Source of the DNA: Candidatus Melainabacteria bacterium RIFCSPHIGHO2_02_FULL_34_12 | GTDB lineage: Bacteria > Cyanobacteriota > Vampirovibrionia > 2-02-FULL-35-15 | DNA length: 64,000 nt | NCBI GenBank assembly: GCA_001784555.1 | Contig: MFRM01000003.1 | Coordinates: 188,615-252,614, forward strand | Direction of reading: 5' to 3' | In this document: positions 1-9,318 of the stretch, in pieces | Position numbering within the stretch: position 1 is the stretch's first letter | How the letters are laid out: the number at the start of each line of letters is the position of its first letter | Made by a program: the position numbers and the translations under genes | The notes under the pieces: model-generated | The model's database searches: none | Told to the model about the DNA's origin: nothing | What the model saw: the letters and a program-made list of their open reading frames with translations, nothing else

Positions 1-53
1 ATAGGATAGGTTGTAACTCACCAAAAGAAGTTTTTGATTATTTAATATTAACT

Positions 54-914
54 TTGAAGGAGGAAATCAAGCAATGGGATTATTTTATTAATTGGGATAA
101 GGTGTTAAAAAACACTAAACGATACAAAGATAAATTATCTCTGCTTAATACTTTAATTGGCAAAAATAATATTGAGGCTGAATTAGTTAACTTCTTAAAA
201 GCAGAGCCCTCTATATGCCAAATATTACCAGCATTAATTGCATATAGAGAAGGAGAAAAAACGGGTAAAGTTAAAATATTAACCAATCACTCTTCCTCTC
301 CATTCGAATATAAGGAATATGAGTTTTTACATACCACCTCAATTAGTGATGGAGATATTCAAAAAGTTATTGAGTTTATAAAATCAACTGGCTTCTTAGA
401 GCTTCTAATTAATAAGGATATTACCAGTATAGTTGATTATTTTATTGGCTTGGAAGCAGGGCTAGATACAAATGCCAGAAAAAATAGAACTGGCAAAGCT
501 ATGGAGACAATTTTAGAAAACTTGATTGAAAAGATATGCTTGGAAAATAATTTAGAGTATATCCGACAAGCAACAACAAAAAAAATCAAAAATAAATGGG
601 GATTGGAATTATCCTTTGATAAATCCTCTCTAATTATAGATTTTGCTATTTACAATAAAGCAAAGCTCTATCTGCTTGAGGCAAACTTTTATAGTGGCGG
701 TGGCTCAAAACTAAAATCAACCGCTGGCGAATATAAAACTTTATTTAAAACAATAAATAATCAAGGACACAATTTTATATGGATTACTGATGGAGAAGGT
801 TGGAAAACATCCTCTCTTCCACTAGAAGAAACATTTAATCATATTGATCACTTGCTTAATCTTGAAATGGTTTCTAAAGGACTCTTAGAAGATATAGTAA
901 CAATGAATCTATAA
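54..914 (+). CDS. Type II restriction endonuclease, DpnII/MboI family (GATC-specific by homology)
   Basis: 286 aa. Block-wise match to my recollection of S. pneumoniae DpnII: 'QWDYFINWDKVLKNT', 'VDYFIGLEAGLDTNARKNRTGKAMETIL', 'LYLLEANFYSGGGSKLKSTAGEYK', 'FIWITDGEGW'. Length is similar to DpnII. The start is uncertain: TTG at 54 follows an in-frame TAA at 48..50. Confidence 0.85.
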   Translation: MKEEIKQWDYFINWDKVLKNTKRYKDKLSLLNTLIGKNNIEAELVNFLKAEPSICQILPALIAYREGEKTGKVKILTNHSSSPFEYKEYEFLHTTSISDGDIQKVIEFIKSTGFLELLINKDITSIVDYFIGLEAGLDTNARKNRTGKAMETILENLIEKICLENNLEYIRQATTKKIKNKWGLELSFDKSSLIIDFAIYNKAKLYLLEANFYSGGGSKLKSTAGEYKTLFKTINNQGHNFIWITDGEGWKTSSLPLEETFNHIDHLLNLEMVSKGLLEDIVTMNL

Positions 915-920
915 GATTCA

Positions 921-1142
921 TTACTCCTTCAAATCCAAAACCCAATCAGCACTAATAGAATAGATATCACAAAGAGCTTTGAATTTTGAAACAGGGATTT
1001 CAGTTTTACCTTCTTCTAACTTAAAGAGATTTACTCTATGCATTTTGATTTTGTGTGATTCATAGAGTAGATTTACTGCTCCTTGAAGTGACAAACCCAT
1101 TGATTCCCTTGCTTTTTTGAGTTTTTTATACCACTTAGCCAA
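921..1142 (-). CDS. XRE/Cro-type helix-turn-helix transcriptional regulator
   Basis: 73 aa. 'LKKARESMGLSLQGAVNLL...LFKLEEGKTEIPVSKFKALCDIYSISADWVL' has the HTH_3 layout. Convergent with the endonuclease gene. Confidence 0.7.
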   Translation of the reverse strand: MAKWYKKLKKARESMGLSLQGAVNLLYESHKIKMHRVNLFKLEEGKTEIPVSKFKALCDIYSISADWVLDLKE

Positions 1143-1265
1143 CTGTTTAACCTCTTAAATACAGGTTAATTGGCTAAGAATGGTGCTGTTATATACTATA
1201 TAACAACAATGTAGTATATGAGATAACAAGACTGTTCTTTGCTGGATTGTAAGGAGTTAAGAAAT

Positions 1266-1769
1266 ATGAAAACTGTAAAAATCAGCATACCTCTAGTATT
1301 AGCATTAATTTTATATACAGCATTCTCTTATGCTACATACGCCGAAAGTGGTTCAGATAAATATACTCCAACTAAACTTGAATGGCTTATGAACTACTTA
1401 AATTCATACTCAAATTCATTGCCTCGAGATTCCTATGATTGTTTAGTAAGATATGAGCCTAAGCCACCTAATACAGTTAATGTAACAATTATCTATGGCT
1501 TCAGAAAGTGTCCAAGTAAAACTGAGGCTGAAACTACACTTAGTCTTGCAGAGGGGACGATAAGAGAGTTTGCACATAAAAAAAATTGGAACTGGGTAAA
1601 TACTCAAGGAGAATTAAAAGAAATTAGCCAAGCAAGGCAAGAAGGTAACCAAGCTGTGAAAGAAAGCGCAGAGAGGGCTCTACAAATACTAATTAAAGAT
1701 CTTGGCAAAGATCATCCAGAAGTAAAAGATTTTCAGCAAAAATTAAACGAATGGTTTGATAAATACTAA
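1266..1769 (+). CDS. Hypothetical secreted protein
   Basis: ORF 1239..1769. The ATG at 1266 lies 9 nt after AAGGAG (1251..1256) and gives a signal-peptide-like 'MKTVKISIPLVLALILYTAFSYATYA'. No family recognised. Confidence 0.55.
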   Translation: MKTVKISIPLVLALILYTAFSYATYAESGSDKYTPTKLEWLMNYLNSYSNSLPRDSYDCLVRYEPKPPNTVNVTIIYGFRKCPSKTEAETTLSLAEGTIREFAHKKNWNWVNTQGELKEISQARQEGNQAVKESAERALQILIKDLGKDHPEVKDFQQKLNEWFDKY

Positions 1770-2041
1770 AGAGACAAATAAATAGTCAGCTGTTCCACCT
1801 ACAAACACTCTAGAAATATATAAGTCTAGTAACTAAATATAAAACCAAGCCCAATCTAAACTTTTCCTCTCGTCCCACTCCACCCACCAGAGTATAGTCA
1901 AAAAGTTTAGGTAGAGCAAGAGGTGTTATCCTGCAACATTTTTGATTTATATAATTTCTATTTTCAGATTCATAGTAAACTACAATCCAAAAAGTTTAAT
2001 TTACATAATTTAATAACTAAGGAAGACCACAAAAATCAAAC

Positions 2042-2060
2042 AAAGTATCGTAGCTATCGT
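2042..2060 (+). repeat. 19-bp exact direct repeat, copy 1 (AAAGTATCGTAGCTATCGT)
   Basis: Identical 19-mer recurs at 6659..6677. The two copies bracket the primase..PIN-like gene block. Confidence 0.9.
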
Positions 2061-2097
2061 AGACCAGGATTACTTACGACGGTAACGACGATACTTT
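2042..2097 (-). terminator. Hairpin 3' of the primase gene (candidate rho-independent terminator)
   Basis: AAAGTATCGT (2042..2051) pairs perfectly with ACGATACTTT (2088..2097). On the minus strand it is followed by GTTTGATTTTTG. It lies 5 nt after the primase stop. Confidence 0.5.
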
Positions 2098-2101
2098 AAG
2101 G

Positions 2102-4582
2102 CTATTCTTTTATGTTCGAGTTTTTAATTAGGATATATCTTGCTTTACCGTGACCTCTTGATAGCAATATTCCTTCATTTTGGAAATTTACTTTAAGTCT
2201 AAACAGAGATTCGCTAAGTTTATTTGCACCTTTAGGCCACTCTGAGTCTTTAGTATCAATATTAAGTTCTTTTGCTATGTATTGAAGCTCTTTTCTTAAA
2301 TCGGAGGCAGAACCTTTCCAATCAGACTTATCTTCCATCAACTTGATAACACAATCTCCAACTAAAGAAGTAGAAATGACCTCAGAATTCTGTGAATCAA
2401 CATTAGAACTATAAGTTTGCAGAAAATCTTCTTTTGTAAAACCTAATGCTTCAGCAATAGCACAACCCCAAAGAGTAAAATCAGCCATTCTTTCAAGCTT
2501 CTCCAGCTTTAGGTTTTGCTTGATATTTATTGCTTTAACAATTACATTGAAAATACCACCAAGAATCTTAGGCTTGTCTAATTCTAGCTGTTTGTACAGT
2601 TCATCTTCTCGTTTCCAATTACCATCAGAAATTCTCTCCAATTCAATTAATATACTTCTTTCCAATACATCTGACTTTTTGGTAGTTATATTAATTCCAT
2701 TTATCCCAACAAACCTTTGAATGTTATATATTACATCATCATCATTAGTATATAACTCTCTTTTGGTAAGTCCGCATCCTGTTACAACCCTACACAAAGT
2801 ATCAGAACACTGATCACTAAGTTCTGAGACATTATCATAGAAACAACACCATTGATGTGACATTTCTTGTATCAAGTCATTGACGCTACTCCTTAAGGTA
2901 TTTAAGCCTGCTGGAGATGGATCAATAAGATTTTTCAAGATCTTCAGAAATGTTGATTTAGCTGCACCTTGAGGTCCATAAACATTAACAATAGGATGAG
3001 GGAATCCATATATGAAACCACACACAATTATGACTAAAACTAATAGCTCTTGCTTTTTATCTTTTAAATTTAAATATTTTAGTATAAGTTTAATATCACC
3101 ATTATGTTCAGGGATCACTTGCACAGATTGTTGGGAGTATCTCTTAAACAGAATTGGTACTTGCTCAATTACTTCCCAGCCATCCTGTGTAACTTGTACT
3201 GCTTTCCACTTGTTATCTGCAAGATCATACCAATATTCATCACTGCTTCTCTTTGCAACTCTTACAAATAACTTATGTTCTTCCCCTTCAAACAAAGCTT
3301 TATACTCAAGGATTGATAAAGCTTGATTAATCAATTCAGGACTTGAACGCTTTCCAAGCATTTCCCAGCAAAGACCTGAAAGTAAAGTTTTAAACTTTTT
3401 ACTTCTAAGCGAACATGTTTCATAGTGATCTTTTATTTTAATCCGTATATAAGGCTCATTGGTGGAATCATAAAAAAGCTTTGACTCAGAGAATAAGCTA
3501 TCAATAACAAAAGAAAGTACATCATTACCAGGTATAGCACCTACTGCAATAGAGGAGTTGCATTTTCGATTTCTTTTGTCAATCTCTATTCTTTTAAGGG
3601 TATCAAAGATAAGTTGCAACTCATTCTCTTGAGTATCATCATAGTCCTTATTGCAAATTGATTTAAATTCTTTCCATACATTAGTATCAATATCATAATC
3701 TTTAAGTTTGAAAAATAAATTCTCAGCTATCTTAGAGAAATGACTTTGCCTTTCTAAAAGCACAGAGAATTTTTGTAGGTTTTCAATCTCACCTTCGAGA
3801 TACATGTTGAGATCTGACACTGGCAGGAAAATAATACTGGCTTGAGGATACATCATTTTAATTTTTATTGCTTCTGCTATTCCTGGATTATCATGATCAA
3901 GACAAATTAGTATTCTATTGAAGTTTTTAAAATGAATATCTTGATCTAGTTTAGAGGTTACATTAACTCCATGCACACTACAAACCGGATAATATTTAGA
4001 CGAAAAGTTTTCATCAACTAGACCTTGTAAAGCAAAAAGATTAGTGAACCCTTCTAGTAACAATAAAGAATCCTGTGATTTATAGTCTAAAGCTGCACAA
4101 AAGCTTGGTTTAATTTTTTTGTTGCTTTTAGGAAACCATCTATCACCTTTATCACTGAGTGGTTTTAGTTTATACCTGTCCCCAACTGGTATTGCTAATA
4201 CTTTGTTTCTGTTACACCATTTAATATTATTTACTGCGGCAACTTTATCTGGATTAGCAATGTATTTTACACGCTCCAAGTATATTTTGACTCTGTCAGG
4301 TAGATCTATTAAATCTAGTTTTTTTGCTCTCCAATCATCCGTACTATTTTTTTTTGTAAAGTAATCTCTTATATCATTTGAGATTAAATATGTGTGTGCT
4401 TTGTTTGCAAAACAATCATATTTATTGTCTGCTTCATTAAATCTGAAATTATCCTCCCTTGTATCTCCACCTTCTTGCTTACAATATTTGCAAGCAAATG
4501 TATATTCGTTACCAGACTTCTTGGAATCACCAAGAATTTGTTTTAAAGCTTCTAAACGCTCTTCAGCTGAAAATATAGGCAT
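2102..4582 (-). CDS. Mobile-element primase-helicase (zinc-finger + Toprim + VirE/P4-alpha-like P-loop NTPase)
   Basis: 826 aa. N-terminal Cys/His cluster 'CKYCKQEGG...CFANKAH'. Toprim-like 'LLLLEGFTNLFALQG' and 'ILICLDHDNPG'. C-terminal Walker A 'VYGPQGAAKSTFLKIL', as in VirE / P4-type primase C-terminal domains. Confidence 0.8.
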   Translation of the reverse strand: MPIFSAEERLEALKQILGDSKKSGNEYTFACKYCKQEGGDTREDNFRFNEADNKYDCFANKAHTYLISNDIRDYFTKKNSTDDWRAKKLDLIDLPDRVKIYLERVKYIANPDKVAAVNNIKWCNRNKVLAIPVGDRYKLKPLSDKGDRWFPKSNKKIKPSFCAALDYKSQDSLLLLEGFTNLFALQGLVDENFSSKYYPVCSVHGVNVTSKLDQDIHFKNFNRILICLDHDNPGIAEAIKIKMMYPQASIIFLPVSDLNMYLEGEIENLQKFSVLLERQSHFSKIAENLFFKLKDYDIDTNVWKEFKSICNKDYDDTQENELQLIFDTLKRIEIDKRNRKCNSSIAVGAIPGNDVLSFVIDSLFSESKLFYDSTNEPYIRIKIKDHYETCSLRSKKFKTLLSGLCWEMLGKRSSPELINQALSILEYKALFEGEEHKLFVRVAKRSSDEYWYDLADNKWKAVQVTQDGWEVIEQVPILFKRYSQQSVQVIPEHNGDIKLILKYLNLKDKKQELLVLVIIVCGFIYGFPHPIVNVYGPQGAAKSTFLKILKNLIDPSPAGLNTLRSSVNDLIQEMSHQWCCFYDNVSELSDQCSDTLCRVVTGCGLTKRELYTNDDDVIYNIQRFVGINGINITTKKSDVLERSILIELERISDGNWKREDELYKQLELDKPKILGGIFNVIVKAINIKQNLKLEKLERMADFTLWGCAIAEALGFTKEDFLQTYSSNVDSQNSEVISTSLVGDCVIKLMEDKSDWKGSASDLRKELQYIAKELNIDTKDSEWPKGANKLSESLFRLKVNFQNEGILLSRGHGKARYILIKNSNIKE

Positions 4583-4674
4583 GTTTTCTCCTTCTGACCT
4601 TACTGGTCAAATAATTTTTTTAGGAAAATAAAAATCAGGTTATAATTATATTGTTGAAATAAATTAATACCTTA

Positions 4675-4704
4675 ATAGCCCTACACCCATAGGGCTATTT
4701 TTTT
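4675..4704. terminator. Strong hairpin with T-tract (ATAGCCCTA-CACCCA-TAGGGCTAT-TTTTTT)
   Basis: Perfect 9-bp stem (4675..4683 / 4690..4698). A 7-T run follows on the plus strand; a weaker U-rich tail follows on the minus strand. Overlaps the stop of the RHH ORF. Confidence 0.4.
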
Positions 4705-4873
4705 ATCTCCTTTTTCTTTTTGAGTAATCACTTTTAATTAAGCTTCGAATATATGATGAGACTGGTCTGTCTTCTTCTACAGCGACCTCTTTTGCTTTAA
4801 CCCATGTTTCATCATCTACAGAGACACAACGAAGAGTAGGTCTTACTCTTATGTCAGTTTCTTCGCTTTGCAT
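4703..4873 (-). CDS. Small ribbon-helix-helix (CopG/Arc-like) protein, not in the supplied ORF track
   Basis: My own translation gives 56 aa: 'MQSEETDIRVRPTLRCVSVDDETWVKAKEVAVEEDRPVSSYIRSLIKSDYSKRKRR'. It has a beta-strand then two helices, the typical RHH pattern. GGAGG sits 7 nt upstream of the ATG (4873). Confidence 0.45.
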   Translation of the reverse strand: MQSEETDIRVRPTLRCVSVDDETWVKAKEVAVEEDRPVSSYIRSLIKSDYSKRKRR

Positions 4874-5071
4874 AATGATTGCCTCCTTTGATTTTAATCT
4901 TACCGTGCTTGTGTTTCTTTTTCTATTCAGAACATCTGGTTTACATTAACTTAAATTCTTTGAATATAGCTTTTATTATTGTTTTATATACTTAAAAAGC
5001 AAAACAATCACATTGAAAATCAATCTTCATATTTCGTTATACAAAAACCTCTGAAACCCAGTAGGGAAGCG

Positions 5072-5132
5072 GTGTATACACTAGCTTAGTGTGTACTAAG
5101 TTTTTTATTTTGATGTTAGTAGTACATACTAA
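5072..5132. promoter_or_regulatory. Cluster of palindromes in the divergent RHH / orf5270 intergenic region (candidate operators or iterons)
   Basis: GTGTATACAC (5072..5081). CTTAGT-GTGT-ACTAAG (5085..5100). TTAGTA-GTACA-TACTAA (5116..5132). Shared half-site TTAGT(A/G). Confidence 0.25.
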
Positions 5133-5269
5133 GAGTTAAAATATTTTGTTGTTGGTGTGGAACATGCACTGAGATTAAGAGGTTTTAAGTGGCTGCTATC
5201 CAGCTTGCATACAATGCAAAGCATAGATTATAATAAGGAAAGTAGAATTTAAAATGAGGAGTTAATAGT

Positions 5270-5560
5270 ATGAATACAAAAGAAATTAATCTGCATGTAT
5301 TAAAGCAAGCAGAAGAACTTGTCAATGTAATGGATGAATGTGAAATAATTTGTGCTGTGCTTCAAAAACAAAGTAATGGCACAATTAAATCTAATTGTTT
5401 TTCGTCACCTTCGTTGTATGATAAACCCAAGACAGTAAAGAGTATTTTGACTGATATTATTAAGGCTTTACCAACTGGAAAATTTGTTAGAGAAGGTGAA
5501 AGTATAGGGGTTGGGTATGAAGTTGAAAGGGAAGTTAGGGTTGAAAATAATAGCATCTAG
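5270..5560 (+). CDS. Hypothetical small protein
   Basis: 96 aa. GAGGAG about 10 nt upstream of the ATG. Lies immediately upstream of the PIN-like gene. No family recognised. Confidence 0.4.
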   Translation: MNTKEINLHVLKQAEELVNVMDECEIICAVLQKQSNGTIKSNCFSSPSLYDKPKTVKSILTDIIKALPTGKFVREGESIGVGYEVEREVRVENNSI

Positions 5561-5598
5561 TTTATTTTGACATGTAGCAGTTTTATTTAAATATTTTT

Positions 5599-6642
5599 AT
5601 GGACGTTTTTCTTGATACCAATGCTTTATGGGATGACTTACTCTTAGAAAAAGATTACTTTAATCTGTTAATAAATTATGTGCAAAAATCAAAATCAAAG
5701 ATTATTATTCCACAAGTTGTAGTCTCAGAGCTTGAGTGGGAGTACCAAAAAAAAGTAACAATGCACCTTGCAAATCTCAAGAAAGCCACAGGCTTTTTTC
5801 GGGAAAGTGGAGTAGAAATCAAGTTAGAGCATATTGCTCCTGAAAAGCTACTGAATATATACAAAGATAGGCTTTCATATAAATTTAACATTGAATATAA
5901 AAAGTACATTGAAATCTTACCTCCAAAACCTGAATATATTGAGCAACTATCTCATAGATCTATAAGAAGCATTCAACCTTTTATCTCAAGTGAAAAATCA
6001 AAAGATAGAGGGTTTAGAGATTCCCTAATATGGCTCACATTAATAGATAGGATGAAAGGTAGCAAACTTCCTTGTGCTCTAATTAGCAATGATGGAACAG
6101 CTTTTGGTAAAAGTGGAAAACTAATGCCTGAACTGGAAAAAGAAGCCAAAGAGAATGATTTTGAATTGCTGTATTATAACCAATTAAGTAACTTTGTAGA
6201 AGAAAAATCTGATCTCTTAGAATACTTAGATGAACAGTTTATTAAATCTCATCTCAAGAATGAGGAAATAATCCAGCTTGTATATAAAGTAGCCAATGAA
6301 TTACCCCAGGATGAAATACTAAAACAATATACATTAAAGAATGACGGTACTGATATTGCAGAGGGTATTCAGGAAATAAAAATTGGCGGTGTTACCTTTG
6401 CTGAATGCAGAAAGTATGAAGATGATAAAGGTATAACAAGGATTTTAACTACTTACTTAGTTAATCTTAGACCACTTATATTTAAATGGTCTCTTCCTGA
6501 TAAAACCTCTAAGATCGTAAGAGATTTTTGTCAAGATGTATACTTAAAAATATCTTCTAGACTGACTACAGATGACAAACTAATTGACCATAATTTGGAA
6601 GAACATATATTTATTGATGTAGTTAATATAAAAAACAAATGA
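5599..6642 (+). CDS. PIN-like nuclease domain protein with uncharacterised C-terminal domain (DUF4935-like)
   Basis: 347 aa. 'MDVFLDTNAL', 'IIIPQVVVSELE', 'DRGFRDSLIWL' and 'ALISNDGTAFG' give the four acidic positions expected of a PIN fold. About 150 aa of C-terminal extension are unassigned. Confidence 0.6.
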   Translation: MDVFLDTNALWDDLLLEKDYFNLLINYVQKSKSKIIIPQVVVSELEWEYQKKVTMHLANLKKATGFFRESGVEIKLEHIAPEKLLNIYKDRLSYKFNIEYKKYIEILPPKPEYIEQLSHRSIRSIQPFISSEKSKDRGFRDSLIWLTLIDRMKGSKLPCALISNDGTAFGKSGKLMPELEKEAKENDFELLYYNQLSNFVEEKSDLLEYLDEQFIKSHLKNEEIIQLVYKVANELPQDEILKQYTLKNDGTDIAEGIQEIKIGGVTFAECRKYEDDKGITRILTTYLVNLRPLIFKWSLPDKTSKIVRDFCQDVYLKISSRLTTDDKLIDHNLEEHIFIDVVNIKNK

Positions 6643-6658
6643 TTTTTAGAAGGAATAA

Positions 6659-6677
6659 AAAGTATCGTAGCTATCGT
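6659..6677 (+). repeat. 19-bp exact direct repeat, copy 2
   Basis: AAAGTATCGTAGCTATCGT, identical to 2042..2060. Lies 17 nt after the PIN-like gene stop. Confidence 0.9.
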
Positions 6678-6902
6678 TGATATTAAGTCAAAGAATCTTA
6701 GATTTAACTCTAGCCACACAAGCAGCAACATAGTTTCCCCACACCCCATTGATCAAAAATCCCCAAAGGGTGGTGGGTGTTTTTGATATGAATTAAGTAG
6801 TTGCTTGATTGACTTTCTCTATGACTATGTAAATGCTAACTATATACTTTGTAAATAAATGTGGGTACAATATATACGTATGGTTCTCATAACTTAAAAA
6901 GT

Positions 6903-6922
6903 TAGCAGGACATAGCAGGACA
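6903..6922 (+). repeat. Perfect tandem 10-mer (TAGCAGGACA x2)
   Basis: Read directly. Lies 64 nt upstream of the tRNA-Pro fragment. It may be a recombinase arm-type site, but that is speculative. Confidence 0.6.
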
Positions 6923-6985
6923 CAGAAAACTAAAAAGACTATCGTTGAAATCATTGCAGACAAAAGGTTTCAACTGCTTCTGAGG

Positions 6986-7030
6986 TGCTTTGGGAGCAGA
7001 GGGTCGCACGTTCAAATCGTGTCGCCCCGA
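6986..7030 (+). repeat. tRNA-Pro(UGG) 3' fragment (anticodon loop to discriminator), att-like copy 1
   Basis: TGC-TTTGGGA-GCA.. GGGTC GCACG-TTCAAAT-CGTGT CGCCCCG-A. Features: anticodon loop with UGG and G37, canonical T-arm (G53/C61), a 3' acceptor implying a C1:G72 start and discriminator A, as in bacterial tRNA-Pro. No D-arm or 5' acceptor upstream, so it is not a functional gene. Confidence 0.8.
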
Positions 7031-7067
7031 GAGTTGTAATAACATAGATATTGAAGGAGAGCATTTA

Positions 7068-7589
7068 ATGAAACCATTAGCAAAGGTTTATACACCAATA
7101 ACTTCAGGTGGAGCTATTTATCAACGAATGGGTCTTGGCTATGTTGATTGGCAAGATGCTTATTGGTCAGTTGGAGTTATTGAACCTCAACATTCTGTGG
7201 ATGCTTATACAAAGAAGCAAGGAGGATTACTAGAACAAATTATTCCACTATTTGCAATGAATGAAAAAGTAGAAGTTTCAATTCCTTCAACGGGGGAAAA
7301 AATTATTGGGACAGTAAAGGGGTATAAAAGAGCTAAAACTAGAGCTAAGACAAAAGCGAAATGTCTAGTTATGGGTGTAGTGCCAGATGGACAAAAAAAG
7401 ACTAAAAATATTTATATAGATCCATGGGAGCTAGACTTTAGAAATACAATAAACATGAGAGTAGAGAAAGGAGAAAGTCCATTAATAGCTAAATTAATAG
7501 GTGAAGATGGTAATGTTTACTTTGAGATCAAAAATCTTACTCATAAAAAATTACCGGCAGACAGAGCAGAATTCATAAATTTCGAATGA
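7068..7589 (+). CDS. Hypothetical protein (islet cargo)
   Basis: ORF 6990..7589. The ATG at 7068 follows GAAGGAGAG. The upstream part of the ORF merely reads through the tRNA fragment. No family recognised. Confidence 0.5.
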   Translation: MKPLAKVYTPITSGGAIYQRMGLGYVDWQDAYWSVGVIEPQHSVDAYTKKQGGLLEQIIPLFAMNEKVEVSIPSTGEKIIGTVKGYKRAKTRAKTKAKCLVMGVVPDGQKKTKNIYIDPWELDFRNTINMRVEKGESPLIAKLIGEDGNVYFEIKNLTHKKLPADRAEFINFE

Positions 7590-7628
7590 AGGTCTAAATC
7601 TATCTAAAATCTGTAAAAACCCCATTTG

Positions 7629-7648
7629 TTCAAATCGTGTCGCCCCGA
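7629..7648 (+). repeat. tRNA-Pro 3'-end fragment, att-like copy 2 (TTCAAATCGTGTCGCCCCGA)
   Basis: 20/20 identical to 7011..7030. Confidence 0.85.
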
Positions 7649-7658
7649 TTTTAGAGGA

Positions 7659-8828
7659 TCAGAAAGCATTTAACCCCAACTCATTAAAGATTTGTTTCCA
7701 TGGTAATATTTCAATTTCTCCTTGCTTTTGTCTTCTATCTACAAGACTTACACAAAAAAGTTTTGCTCTTTTGCAAGCTTCTTTAAATGATCGAAGTCCA
7801 TTAAGTGTTTTAGAGTCCATATTAGATGATGATTTTATTTCAATTGCAAAAACTTCTTTAGTTGGAGATTCAACTATCAAATCAACCTCTGCTCCATCAC
7901 TTGTCCTGTAAAATGAGAATTCAAAATCTTTTTTCAAATAACGCGAAAGTCTCATTATTTCAAGAATAATAAAATGTTCAAATGCTTTTCCATATAATGA
8001 AGTCCCTTCCTCTAGTTCAAGAGAGATTTGTTTTGACAAAGCTCTTTGAACGCCAGTATCAAAAAAATAAAATTTTGGGTGTTGTACAAGTTTCTTTCTG
8101 GCTGATTTTGCATATGGAAATAAATGAAATCCTATCAAAGTATCTTCTAAAATTTGAAAGAATTCTTTGACAGTTCTTCTCTCATTACCTGTTTCTCTGG
8201 CAAGATTGCTGTAGCTTATTATATTGCCATTTTCATCTGCTGCAAGTTTTAAAAATCTTAAAAATCCCCCGATATTTCTTATAAGAGCTTCTTGTCTTAT
8301 TTCTTCTTCTAAATAGGTTTCAATATAGGATCTTAAAGTATCACGAGCCACTTCGTTATTAGGATTTAAATAAACAGAGGGTAAAGTTCCGTAATTAAGA
8401 GCTCTGTCGAGATCAAATTTTTCTTTTAATTCTGTATGTGTAAGAGGGAATAGATAGAATGTCAATGCTCTTCCAGCAAGCAGATTTGCTTGGGATCTTT
8501 TTAGCTTTCTTGCACTAGATCCACTTAGGAAGAAATGAAGGCTTTTTCTCTCTTCAATTATTCTATGAATTTCATTTAATAGATCCGGGACTCTTTGTAT
8601 TTCATCAATGATAATGCATTTTATGTTTTGATTTAATGCTTCAATCTCTTTAGAAAGCACTCCAGGGTTTGTAGAAAATTTCATATATTCACTAGTTTTT
8701 AACAAATCATAATAAGCAAAGGATTCTTTTTTAAAAAAGTCTTTTAAAAATGTGCTTTTTCCAACTTGTCTTGGGCCAAATATGAAACAACTTTTGTTTA
8801 ACGGTAGTTTTAAAAAACGCTTTATCAT
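7659..8828 (-). CDS. AAA-family ATPase with DUF4143-type C-terminal domain
   Basis: 389 aa. Walker A 'GPRQVGKSTFLKDFF' and Walker B 'CIIIDEIQ'. Overall layout matches the widespread AAA_14 + DUF4143 'ATP-binding protein' family. Confidence 0.8.
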   Translation of the reverse strand: MIKRFLKLPLNKSCFIFGPRQVGKSTFLKDFFKKESFAYYDLLKTSEYMKFSTNPGVLSKEIEALNQNIKCIIIDEIQRVPDLLNEIHRIIEERKSLHFFLSGSSARKLKRSQANLLAGRALTFYLFPLTHTELKEKFDLDRALNYGTLPSVYLNPNNEVARDTLRSYIETYLEEEIRQEALIRNIGGFLRFLKLAADENGNIISYSNLARETGNERRTVKEFFQILEDTLIGFHLFPYAKSARKKLVQHPKFYFFDTGVQRALSKQISLELEEGTSLYGKAFEHFIILEIMRLSRYLKKDFEFSFYRTSDGAEVDLIVESPTKEVFAIEIKSSSNMDSKTLNGLRSFKEACKRAKLFCVSLVDRRQKQGEIEILPWKQIFNELGLNAF

Positions 8829-8942
8829 ACAAGATATTATACCCTATTTTAGGCATTCTTCTGCCAAATTTACGGCAAAAATAACATTCAGATGCCACTT
8901 TATTACTTATTTCTGAGGCATCTATTTTATACAACTGAGCGG

Positions 8943-8960
8943 CAAATCGTGTCGCCCTGA
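8943..8960 (+). repeat. tRNA-Pro 3'-end fragment, att-like copy 3 (CAAATCGTGTCGCCCTGA)
   Basis: 17/18 identical to the corresponding part of copies 1 and 2 (one C>T). Confidence 0.75.
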
Positions 8961-8988
8961 TATTATAGAGTCAGGAGAAGTACAAAAA

Positions 8989-9318
8989 ATGACACTTATA
9001 GATTTAAGCTTAAAAAAAACATGTGATCACTTTCAAGGTTTTCGTGGAAAATTTATTAACTCTGAAAAGAGCACAATAATTTTCTGGGAAGCTGAAGCAG
9101 GCGCAATAGTACCTGAGCATTCTCATCCTCATGAACAAATATCAGAAGTTACAGAAGGAAAATTTGAGCTTAAAGTTGGTAATAAAACTACAATTTTAAA
9201 ATCAGGCCTGGTTATAATTATTCCGCCTAATACAACTCACTCAGGCAAAGCTTTAACTTCCTGCAAAATTAAAGATATTTTTTGTCCTGTAAGAGAAGAC
9301 TACAAAGAGTTTAGTTAA
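8989..9318 (+). CDS. Cupin-domain protein
   Basis: 109 aa. 'PEHSHPHEQISEVTEGKFELKVG...IIIPPNTTHSGKA' matches the two cupin motifs. Confidence 0.75.
   Translation: MTLIDLSLKKTCDHFQGFRGKFINSEKSTIIFWEAEAGAIVPEHSHPHEQISEVTEGKFELKVGNKTTILKSGLVIIIPPNTTHSGKALTSCKIKDIFCPVREDYKEFS

What the first reader, a model, noticed from the sequence alone, without database searches (positions are those of the whole stretch)
6986..8960. Three direct copies of a tRNA-Pro(UGG) 3' end delimit tandem integrated islets; the intact tRNA lies outside the window
Three copies are present:
- Copy 1 is 45 nt and runs from the anticodon stem to the discriminator.
- Copy 2 is the last 20 nt and is an exact match.
- Copy 3 is the last 18 nt with one mismatch.

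All are on the + strand. This is the pattern left by successive site-specific integrations into the 3' end of one tRNA gene: tRNA - element - core - element - core, and so on.

The islets 7031..7648 (one hypothetical gene) and 7649..8960 (AAA/DUF4143 ATPase) are tiny and lack integrases. The intact tRNA-Pro and an integrase should lie left of position 1. That would make everything from the window start to 6985 a further element of at least 7 kb, carrying the endonuclease, primase and PIN. Core chromosome appears to resume at about 8961.

The different core lengths (45 nt vs 20 nt) suggest at least two different integrases used this tRNA. A perfect tandem 10-mer (6903..6922) just upstream could be an arm-type site.
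Basis: partly seen in the sequence, partly recalled or inferred. Interest (0 to 1): 0.65.

Follow-up and report, generated by a model that had tools for sequence, protein, structure and literature searches.

The report
Tandem island array at tRNA-Pro
A proline tRNA gene in an uncultured groundwater Melainabacterium is followed by one intact 12.4-kb integrase-carrying island full of anti-phage genes and two tiny decayed leftovers, each ending in a copy of the tRNA's tail; this is a clear but ordinary case of repeated site-specific integration at a tRNA gene.

Summary
All three + strand copies of the tRNA-Pro(UGG) 3' end exist:
- copy 1, 6986-7030, with identity running to 7033 (48 nt);
- copy 2, 7628-7648 (21 nt, not 20);
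- copy 3, 8943-8960 (1 mismatch).

None is expected by chance, and the 2.1-Mb genome holds no further copy.

The predicted intact tRNA-Pro(UGG) lies 5.4 kb left of the window (window -5480..-5407). A tyrosine integrase gene starts 65 nt after it. Together with copy 1 they bound a 12.4-kb element. It carries Mrr, two TIR proteins, Dam/DpnII, a putative primase-helicase and a PIN protein.

Eleven related integrases in other Melainabacteria all sit beside tRNA genes. Their repeat blocks start or end in the anticodon stem-loop.

These lie at fixed offsets (about +/-74 and +/-84 nt) from the anticodon loop in five elements, and their sequence co-varies between elements.

Islets B and C lack integrases and are bounded by T-loop-type repeats. 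They are most likely decayed remnants. Islet C shares both termini with a 218-bp islet at the same tRNA in another genus.

This is a new member of a known kind. Excision could not be tested.

The parts
1..6985 (+). In-window part of element A, which is 12.4 kb in total. Its left 5.4 kb lies outside the window: intact tRNA-Pro(UGG) at window -5480..-5407 (C3:183135-183208), integrase at -5340..-4225, Mrr at -4188..-3301, two TIR proteins at -3281..-2430 and -2437..-1121, and Dam methylase at -1064..-21.
   Evidence: ARAGORN and Rfam tRNA; ORFs; Pfam PF00589, Mrr_cat/Mrr_N, TIR_2, MethyltransfD12; PADLOC PDC-S02/mREase_IV, PDC-S66, MTase_II.
1..914 (+). DpnII-family type II restriction endonuclease. 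The gene starts at window -24; it partners the Dam-type methylase just upstream.
   Evidence: PF04556, E 4.3e-90; PADLOC REase_II.
921..1142 (-). 73-aa XRE-type HTH regulator, a conserved core gene of this element family.
   Evidence: HTH_3, E 6e-5; 50-92% identical homologues in six related elements.
2102..4582 (-). 826-aa putative primase-helicase: a P-loop NTPase with an N-terminal Zn-finger/Toprim-like region. The annotation is weak.
   Evidence: phrog_239 DNA primase/helicase, E 9.5e-5; Toprim_2 E 0.017 and VapE-like E 0.08, both below cut-off; no PDB relative beyond P-loop matches; the C-terminal 450-500 aa are 41-49% identical in three related elements.
4703..4873 (-). 56-aa small protein conserved in the element family; possibly a regulator or an excision factor.
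   Evidence: 39-43% identical homologues in five related elements; no Pfam hit.
5599..6642 (+). PIN_12-domain protein (cargo), preceded by a 96-aa ORF at 5270-5560.
   Evidence: PF16289, E 1.4e-21.
6903..6922 (+). Two tandem 10-bp arm-type integrase-binding units (TAGCAGGACA x2) in the distal arm of element A, 84 and 74 nt from the anticodon-loop centre of copy 1.
   Evidence: Inverted copy at +84 and direct copy at +97 next to the integrase start. The same offsets occur with element-specific sequences in four other elements.
6986..7033 (+). Copy 1 = attR of element A: 45 nt of the tRNA-Pro 3' part (anticodon stem to discriminator) plus 3 nt of trailer, 48 of 48 identical to the intact gene.
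   Evidence: D1.
7034..7627 (+). Islet B: one 173-aa ORF (7068-7589) of unknown function and no integrase. Its first ~22 nt resemble the integrase-proximal arm of A-type elements.
   Evidence: No Pfam, PHROG, PADLOC or NCBIfam family. Only four distant homologues among 1.84 billion representatives. AF2 pLDDT 59.5 and no fold match. Arm similarity (D1).
7628..7648 (+). Copy 2: last 21 nt of tRNA-Pro (from the last T-stem base through the T loop to the discriminator), exact. It is the right end of islet B and the left end of islet C.
7649..8942 (-). Islet C: a single AAA_14/DUF4143 ATPase gene (7659-8828, minus strand), a candidate one-gene defence system (PADLOC PDC-S01).
   Evidence: PF13173 and PF13635; PDC-S01, E 8e-71. 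Both termini recur at a 218-bp islet beside tRNA-Pro in genome G001.
8943..8974 (+). Copy 3: last 18 nt of tRNA-Pro with one mismatch, plus 14 nt of tRNA-trailer-like sequence. It forms a 32-nt, 84% direct repeat with copy 2 and its trailer. The backbone begins at 8966.
   Evidence: D6; variant contig L098 diverges left of 8966.

Best explanation
The stretch is the downstream part of an integration hot spot at the single tRNA-Pro(UGG) gene, which lies next to ligA in a groundwater Melainabacterium.

The newest occupant is element A (12.4 kb). It carries a tyrosine integrase that crosses over in the anticodon loop. Its attP held the tRNA's 3' 45 nt. Integration therefore rebuilt the tRNA and pushed the old 3' part (copy 1) to the far end.

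The integrase most likely bridges the anticodon-stem core and 10-bp arm-type units placed about 74-97 nt away on both arms. The tandem 10-mer at 6903-6922 is the distal pair. Element A also carries a putative primase-helicase, small regulators and defence cargo: Mrr, two TIR proteins, Dam/DpnII and a PIN protein.

Downstream lie two older leftovers without integrases (islets B and C). They are bounded by T-loop-type fragments of 21 nt and 18 nt (32 nt with trailer). These come from earlier integrations by a different class of integrase, followed by internal deletion. Islet C keeps a one-gene candidate defence system (PDC-S01 ATPase).

Shown here: the repeats, the tRNA, the integrase, the element boundaries, and the family-wide att geometry. 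Inferred: the order of events, the deletion history, arm-site binding, and present-day mobility.
For: - Intact tRNA and integrase lie where predicted.
- attL and attR share a 48-nt exact block.
- There are only four core copies in the genome, all on one strand within 14.4 kb.
- Eleven related integrases (55-84% identical) each lie 70-150 nt from a tRNA gene. Where both ends were in the fetched DNA, the repeat blocks are 39-54 nt and start or end in the anticodon stem-loop.
- Arm units sit at +74/+84/+97 and -84/-74 nt from the anticodon-loop centre in five elements at four tRNAs, and their sequence co-varies.
- G008 carries an 84%-identical integrase, with a near-identical proximal arm, at the same tRNA.
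- Relatives show other scars at this tRNA: 3' fragments 0.2-0.6 kb downstream in G001, G002 and G007; integrase C-terminal remnants in G001; an ~80-nt left-arm scar in G011.
- Both termini of islet C match those of the G001 islet.
- A strain variant breaks at 8965/8966.
- The literature describes tandem arrays with partial tRNAs and degraded remnants, the A and T/J crossover subsites, and decay to integrase-less elements that keep their att sites.
Against: - No empty site and no attP or attB junction was found. More than ten population contigs from several samples all carry the same array.
- No intact T-loop-type element with the termini of islet B or C was found, so their origin as elements is inferred.
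- The left end of islet B looks like an anticodon-type arm, yet no matching 45-nt fragment closes it. At least one deletion has to be assumed.
- The variant contig has no tRNA core at its junction.
- The primase-helicase call rests on sub-threshold matches.
- GC content does not mark the boundaries.
Confidence: 0.85

Rival explanations
1. Islets B and C are not dead leftovers. They are integrase-less mini-elements (CIME-like, or cassette-like) that are still moved in trans by an integrase encoded elsewhere, each insertion duplicating the att core.
For: - The same termini (TTTTAsAGGATC ... CTGAGCGG) bound a 218-bp islet at tRNA-Pro in another genus.
- A 56%-identical paralogue of the ATPase on contig C20 is also a ~1.3-kb one-gene unit, bracketed by a 66-bp direct repeat at 95%.
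- One further homologue (L071) has a 17-nt exact flanking repeat.
- The ATPase family is patchy and reaches 12 or more copies per genome.
Against: - 27 of 30 homologues in other genomes have no flanking repeat of 13 nt or more, and none of 29 is within 1.5 kb of a tRNA.
- Any remnant recognised by its att repeats must keep its termini, so shared termini only show a shared parent family.
- No T-loop-type integrase was found in this genome: the only other tyrosine recombinase hit is 23% identical.
- No population variation in the islets was seen.
Confidence: 0.1
2. Islet C is old, vertically inherited chromosome, present before the genera split. The ATPase gene was inserted into it later, or lost in G001, so C is not the remnant of a recent element.
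For: Both islet ends are shared with G001, the relative closest in the flanking genes. Copy 3 has decayed by one base.
Against: LigA is only 75% identical between the two genomes, and the islet interiors share nothing. A neutral 18-nt fragment plus 8-12 nt termini would hardly survive that divergence almost intact unless it was renewed by integration or by gene conversion.
Confidence: 0.12
3. Copies 2 and 3 are products of local duplication or slippage, or are chance matches, and are unrelated to site-specific recombination.
For: They are short (21 and 18 nt), and no integrase lies between them.
Against: 100 shuffles gave 0 matches. The copies are exact end fragments, in the correct orientation and on the correct side of the tRNA. 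The DNA between them is unrelated. They start inside or at the edge of the T loop, a known crossover subsite. Similar fragments lie downstream of the same tRNA in three other genera.
Confidence: 0.03

Closest known systems
tRNA-gene integrative islands as defined by Islander (Williams 2002; Hudson, Lau and Williams 2015, PMC4383910)
   Same: Element A shows an intact tDNA, a same-strand displaced end fragment and an internal tyrosine integrase. Its block is anticodon-centred (subsite A) and the islets have T-loop/junction blocks. Tandem occupancy of one tRNA is also known.
   Different: Only the first member has an integrase, and the two others are below Islander's 2-kb limit. By Islander's own rule this is therefore not a scored tandem array. 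The host is an uncultured Melainabacterium.
Tycheposons and degraded island material of Prochlorococcus (Hackl et al., bioRxiv 10.1101/2020.12.28.424599)
   Same: Small tRNA-integrating elements with a tyrosine recombinase, a replication-type gene (primase/helicase) and cargo. New arrivals push older ones inward; partial tRNAs and fragmented integrases litter the island. The host phylum is related.
   Different: Whether this integrase belongs to the tycheposon recombinase clade was not tested. The cargo here is anti-phage defence rather than nutrient uptake. No capsid or terminase genes are present.
CIMEs and accretion at tRNA or other 3' gene ends in streptococci (Pavlovic 2004; Bellanger 2011; reviewed in PMC5704250)
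   Same: Integrase-less leftovers that keep attL and attR, with a newer element integrated in tandem.
   Different: No conjugation or mobilisation genes appear anywhere in the array. Cis-mobilisation was not tested. The islets are much smaller (0.6 and 1.3 kb).
P4-like and PICI-type satellites
   Same: About 10 kb in size, with an integrase next to a tRNA, a large primase-helicase-like protein and small regulators.
   Different: PHROGs found no packaging, capsid-redirecting or helper-sensing genes. The primase assignment is weak.
Heterobivalent lambda-type integrases with arm-type sites
   Same: Repeated short units occur on both arms at fixed distances from the crossover, tandem on one arm and inverted on the other.
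   Different: The N-terminal domain here is an excisionase/MerR-like HTH (HTH_17, below cut-off), not the lambda Int N-domain. Binding is inferred only.

Membership tests
tDNA integrative island (Islander criteria) | Intact tRNA gene at one end | tested here: met
   ARAGORN tRNA-Pro(tgg) at C3:183134-183209; Rfam RF00005, 64.1 bits.
tDNA integrative island (Islander criteria) | Displaced end fragment of the same tRNA, in the same orientation, with the 3' fragment downstream | tested here: met
   48-nt exact block at window 6986-7033; also 21-nt and 18-nt fragments, all on the + strand and downstream.
tDNA integrative island (Islander criteria) | Tyrosine integrase gene inside the candidate island | tested here: met
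   Met for element A (PF00589, E 9.5e-24). The R, K, HxxR, H and Y motifs (GLRASE, KGKKNR, HGLRR, LGHSD, QGY) can be read in the translation. Not met for islets B and C.
Islander tandem array | [quoted passage not shown] | tested here: not met
   Islets B (0.6 kb) and C (1.3 kb) have fragments but no integrase.
CIME (cis-mobilizable element) | Has lost integration and transfer genes but keeps attL and attR | tested here: met
   B and C are each bounded by tRNA 3' repeats and encode no recombinase. Definition taken from PMC5704250.
CIME (cis-mobilizable element) | Derived from an ICE or IME and mobilised in cis with a neighbouring element | not testable with these tools
   No parent element was found.
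Tycheposon | Integration at a tRNA with flanking partial tRNA, plus a replication-type hallmark gene and cargo | tested here: inconclusive
   The tRNA repeats and the cargo are met. The primase-helicase is supported only by sub-threshold hits.
Tycheposon | Integrase belongs to the tycheposon-specific deep-branching tyrosine recombinase clade | not tested
The best NCBIfam match is XerA-like, below cut-off.
PICI / P4-like phage satellite | Genes for hijacking helper-phage packaging (terS, capsid-size redirection, cos/pac) or a helper-responsive repressor | tested here: not met
   The PHROG scan of the unassigned proteins returns only integrase and a weak primase/helicase hit.
Arm-site-dependent (lambda-type) integrase system | Matching arm-type repeats on both attP arms at a fixed distance from the core | tested here: met
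   Offsets of +74/+84/+97 and -84/-74 in five elements, with co-varying unit sequence.
Arm-site-dependent (lambda-type) integrase system | A separate N-terminal arm-binding domain that binds those repeats | tested here: inconclusive
   N-terminal HTH_17 scores 21.9 bits against a cut-off of 27. Binding cannot be tested here.

The most novel reading that the evidence does not exclude
Integrase-less mini-elements bounded by duplicated att cores, including a one-gene PDC-S01 (AAA_14/DUF4143) defence cassette, may still be moved in trans. This would explain three things: the same termini flank islets at tRNA-Pro in two genera; a second PDC-S01 paralogue in this genome sits in a ~1.3-kb unit bracketed by a 66-bp direct repeat; and the next gene at that site has its own related repeat pair. 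If so, this would be a cassette-like way of building defence islands without a resident recombinase.
Probability: 0.1. Interest if true: 0.55.

Novelty: new member of a known kind. Interest (0 to 1): 0.3.

Why it matters
The finding maps a defence-island hot spot in the Melainabacteria, a poorly studied, uncultured sister lineage of the cyanobacteria. It also defines a family of small elements (6-12 kb) that carry an integrase and a putative primase.

In this family the att geometry is rigid: arm units lie about 74-97 nt either side of the anticodon loop. The element can carry either half of the tRNA. In the fetched loci, the 5' half is restored in three elements with both ends seen, and is implied by tRNA orientation in one more. 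In Islander, about 4% of islands have a 5' fragment.

This makes the integrases easy to test and possibly useful as tRNA-directed integration tools. It also gives exact boundaries for annotating the defence cargo. As biology, it fits the established picture of tRNA islands, tycheposon-like arrays and decayed remnants.

Tried and rejected
**Empty site or excision products**
- Two metagenome scans (neighbouring 475-aa protein; 30-nt backbone pattern) found nothing.
- Exact-protein look-ups of the 173-aa ORF, the cupin, LigA and the integrase gave 5-17 contigs each, from several samples. Apart from one variant contig (L098), all carry the same array.
- Contig breaks fall inside the repeated core, as assemblers produce. 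No attP junction was seen.

**Parent of islet B**
- A word search found only the protein itself.
- Full HMMER found four distant hits, on contigs too short to give context.
- The AF2 model was poor (pLDDT 59.5), and Foldseek against PDB gave nothing below E 0.02.

**ATPase gene as a self-mobile, tRNA-seeking cassette**
- Rejected as a general rule: none of 29 homologues in other genomes lies near a tRNA, and 27 of 30 lack flanking repeats.

**Copies 2 and 3 as eroded 45-nt fragments**
- Rejected: the sequence upstream of each shows no residual similarity to the tRNA.

**Second integrase downstream of the G011 tRNA**
- None found; only an arm scar is present.

**Firmer annotation of the primase**
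- Pfam, NCBIfam and PDB searches (single sequence and 4-sequence profile) gave only P-loop or sub-threshold matches.

**Other**
- GC profile: uninformative.
- An apparent 154-nt insertion in the PIN gene in one sample starts with a scaffold gap, so I discounted it.
Full report
**1. Observation**

The window is G000:C3:188615-252614. Locus L001 is C3:178615-198614, so a window coordinate equals the L001 coordinate minus 10000. Reading 6800-9100 shows the three + strand copies.

- Copy 1 (6986-7030) is TGCTTTGGGAGCAGAGGGTCGCACGTTCAAATCGTGTCGCCCCGA.
- Copy 2 is GTTCAAATCGTGTCGCCCCGA (7628-7648), 21 nt rather than 20.
- Copy 3 is CAAATCGTGTCGCCCTGA (8943-8960), with one mismatch.

An 18-mer search with up to 2 mismatches finds exactly these three sites; 100 shuffles gave none. 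ARAGORN finds no tRNA in the window. The perfect tandem 10-mer TAGCAGGACA x2 sits at 6903-6922.

**2. The predicted tRNA and integrase exist**

The whole assembly (26 contigs, 2.11 Mb, 34% GC) has 43 tRNA genes. One is a single tRNA-Pro(UGG) at C3:183135-183208, on the + strand, which is window -5480..-5407. Rfam confirms it as tRNA at 64 bits.

Its 3' 45 nt are identical to copy 1, and the identity runs 3 nt into the trailer, giving 48 nt. The core 18-mer occurs nowhere else in the genome. tRNA-Pro(GGG) and tRNA-Pro(CGG) have different 3' ends.

Sixty-five nt after the tRNA starts a 371-aa ORF with a Phage_integrase domain (E 9.5e-24) and an N-terminal excisionase-like HTH (HTH_17, below cut-off). 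The tyrosine-recombinase motifs (R, K, HxxR, H, Y) can be read in the translation.

**3. Element A**

Element A is the 12.4 kb between the tRNA and copy 1. In order, it encodes:

- the integrase;
- an Mrr-type endonuclease (PADLOC PDC-S02/mREase_IV);
- two paralogous TIR proteins (PDC-S66);
- a Dam-type methylase and a DpnII endonuclease (type II R-M);
- an XRE-type HTH;
- a 176-aa protein;
- an 826-aa protein with weak primase/helicase signals;
- a 56-aa protein and a 96-aa protein;
- a PIN_12 protein.

The primase label is weak. It rests on phrog_239 (E 9.5e-5), Toprim_2 (E 0.017), VapE-like (E 0.08) and a Walker A motif. PDB searches gave only P-loop matches.

**4. The integrase family**

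A scan of one genome per species found 11 loci with 55-70% identical integrases, plus a remnant. Nearly all are in Candidatus Melainabacteria MAGs from groundwater. G008 has an 84%-identical integrase at the same tRNA-Pro, with a near-identical proximal arm.

Every one of these integrase genes lies 70-150 nt from a tRNA gene: Pro, Ala, Arg(ACG), Arg(TCG), Asp, Val or Thr. Where both ends were inside the fetched DNA, the repeat blocks are 39-54 nt, and each starts or ends in the anticodon stem-loop.

| Element | tRNA and configuration | Repeat block |
|---|---|---|
| Own element A | Pro, 3' part carried | 48 nt |
| L044 | Arg(TCG), 3' part carried | 54 nt |
| L041 | tRNA on the opposite strand, 5' part carried | 52 nt |
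| L046 | tRNA on the opposite strand, 5' part carried | 39 nt |
| G011 | Pro; 5' fragment (nt 1-48) next to the integrase, rebuilt tRNA at the far end | 48 nt |

The family therefore crosses over in the anticodon loop and can carry either tRNA half. Islander lists both subsites. It lists 5' fragments for 159 of 3919 islands.

The shared core genes are the integrase, the 73-aa HTH, the C-terminal two-thirds of the large NTPase and the 56-aa protein. The rest is variable cargo.

**5. Arm-type sites**

In five elements, 10-bp units ending in GGACA lie at -84 and -74 nt from the centre of the anticodon loop on the distal arm, in direct tandem. On the integrase side they lie at +74/+84 (inverted), often with a direct copy near +97, just before the integrase start.

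The unit sequence differs between elements but matches between the two arms of each element. Examples are AGCAGGACA, GCTGGCACA, GCTGGACA, GAGGACA and TGGGACA. The offsets stay the same whichever tRNA half is carried.

Binding itself is inferred.

**6. The islets**

*Islet B (7034-7627)* holds one 173-aa ORF with a good ribosome-binding site.

- No family matches it in four HMM libraries.
- It has four distant homologues among 1.84 billion representatives.
- Its model is uninformative.
- Its first ~22 nt resemble the start of the integrase-proximal arm of A-type elements (D1). Copy 1 was therefore probably once the attL of an earlier A-type element that has since been largely deleted.

*Islet C (7649-8942)* holds one AAA_14/DUF4143 ATPase gene on the minus strand, which matches PADLOC PDC-S01 (E 8e-71).

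- The repeat that bounds it is really 32 nt at 84%: the tRNA end plus trailer (D6).
- Both termini, TTTTA(G/C)AGGATC after the core and CTGAGCGG before the next core, recur at a 218-bp geneless islet beside tRNA-Pro in G001.
- I read this as two differently deleted members of one T-loop-type element family.

Copies 2 and 3 begin at the last T-stem base and inside the T loop, respectively. That is a known crossover subsite and differs from the one the resident integrase family uses.

**7. A hot spot across the family**

In the same-family genomes where the tRNA-Pro neighbourhood could be read, ligA lies next to tRNA-Pro. The downstream side varies between genomes:

- A-type elements in G000, G008 and G011;
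- short 3'-fragment islets in G001 (218 bp), G002 (616 bp, with a two-gene module that looks like a toxin-antitoxin pair; read from the translation, not tested) and G007 (370 bp);
- integrase C-terminal remnants in G001;
- an ~80-nt arm scar in G011.

A 5' scar also lies upstream. It is a 79-nt unit that begins with tRNA nt 1-19 and then roughly nt 23-31. It is single in this genome and tandemly repeated in G007.

**8. Boundaries and activity**

More than ten contigs from several samples carry the same array at 99.8-100% identity. One contig (L098) matches from 8966 rightwards (one mismatch) and is unrelated leftwards, which places the variable/backbone junction 5 nt after copy 3. No empty site and no attP junction was seen. 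Present-day mobility is therefore untested.

**9. Side test of a more novel reading**

The ATPase family is patchy and reaches 12 or more copies per genome in the class.

- A 56%-identical paralogue on contig C20 is bracketed by a 66-bp direct repeat.
- The next gene there has its own related repeat pair.
- An AbiEii toxin gene lies just beyond.
- Against the idea, 27 of 30 homologues elsewhere lack flanking repeats and none is near a tRNA.

I keep trans-mobilised cassettes as a low-probability alternative.

**10. Comparison and verdict**

This matches three published pictures:
- tRNA-gene islands;
- tandem integration that pushes older elements inward, with degraded remnants and partial tRNAs (tycheposon paper);
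- decay to integrase-less elements that keep their att sites.

It is a new member of a known kind, in an under-studied lineage. The att-site comparison is unusually clean.

Noticed in passing
L001 4442-4520 (window -5558..-5480); L037 15216-15481 (G007): A 79-nt unit directly upstream of the intact tRNA starts with tRNA-Pro nt 1-19 exactly. It continues with roughly nt 23-31 and diverges at the anticodon loop. It looks like a 5' scar of a 5'-half-carrying element. In genus G007 the homologous 80-bp unit is tandemly repeated (TRF reports 3.3 copies at 99%, with more beyond an N gap).
   Followed up: partly
G000:C20:3476-3541 and 4801-4866 (L050): A 66-bp direct repeat (95%) brackets a 56%-identical DUF4143/PDC-S01 ATPase paralogue (3577-4746). 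A related 49-nt repeat pair (4904-4952 and 6139-6187) brackets the next gene, an alpha/beta hydrolase. A 209-aa ORF and an AbiEii toxin gene follow. The whole block sits between polysaccharide-synthesis genes.
   Followed up: partly
L039 (G011), L041, L046, L045: Within one integrase family, some elements carry the tRNA's 5' half instead of the 3' half. In those cases the rebuilt tRNA must be transcribed from element DNA. Three of five elements with both ends seen are of this kind; Islander records about 4% of islands with a 5' fragment.
   Followed up: partly
L098 1-138, joined to window 8966 onwards: A co-occurring strain (sample ERZ28563641) has unrelated sequence left of window 8966. This sequence includes the start of an unknown minus-strand gene, and there is no tRNA core at the junction.
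   Followed up: partly
window 2042-2063, 6659-6680 and 6925-6955: The motif AAAGTATCGT(A/T)G occurs after the large NTPase gene (as one arm of a hairpin) and after the PIN gene. A looser version lies in the distal arm, and similar motifs occur in the distal arms of L041 and L044. It may be a binding site for an accessory factor, or an origin.
   Followed up: partly
L035 5734-5951 (G001): The 218-bp islet in G001 contains an inverted 15-nt piece of the tRNA-Pro anticodon arm (GACCCTCTGCTCCCA) and two hairpins. This suggests a further, older recombination scar.
   Followed up: no
L034 5076-5695 (G002): A 616-bp islet between tRNA-Pro and a 14-16-nt 3' fragment holds two small overlapping ORFs. 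From their translations they look like an antitoxin/toxin pair (Phd/YefM-like and RelE/ParE-like); no family search was run.
   Followed up: no
window 7678-7743, compared with L083/L093: In sample ERZ28563591 the 3' end of the ATPase gene is replaced by about 53 nt that include a short inverted segment, giving a 381-aa product. This may be a real variant or a scaffolding artefact.
   Followed up: no
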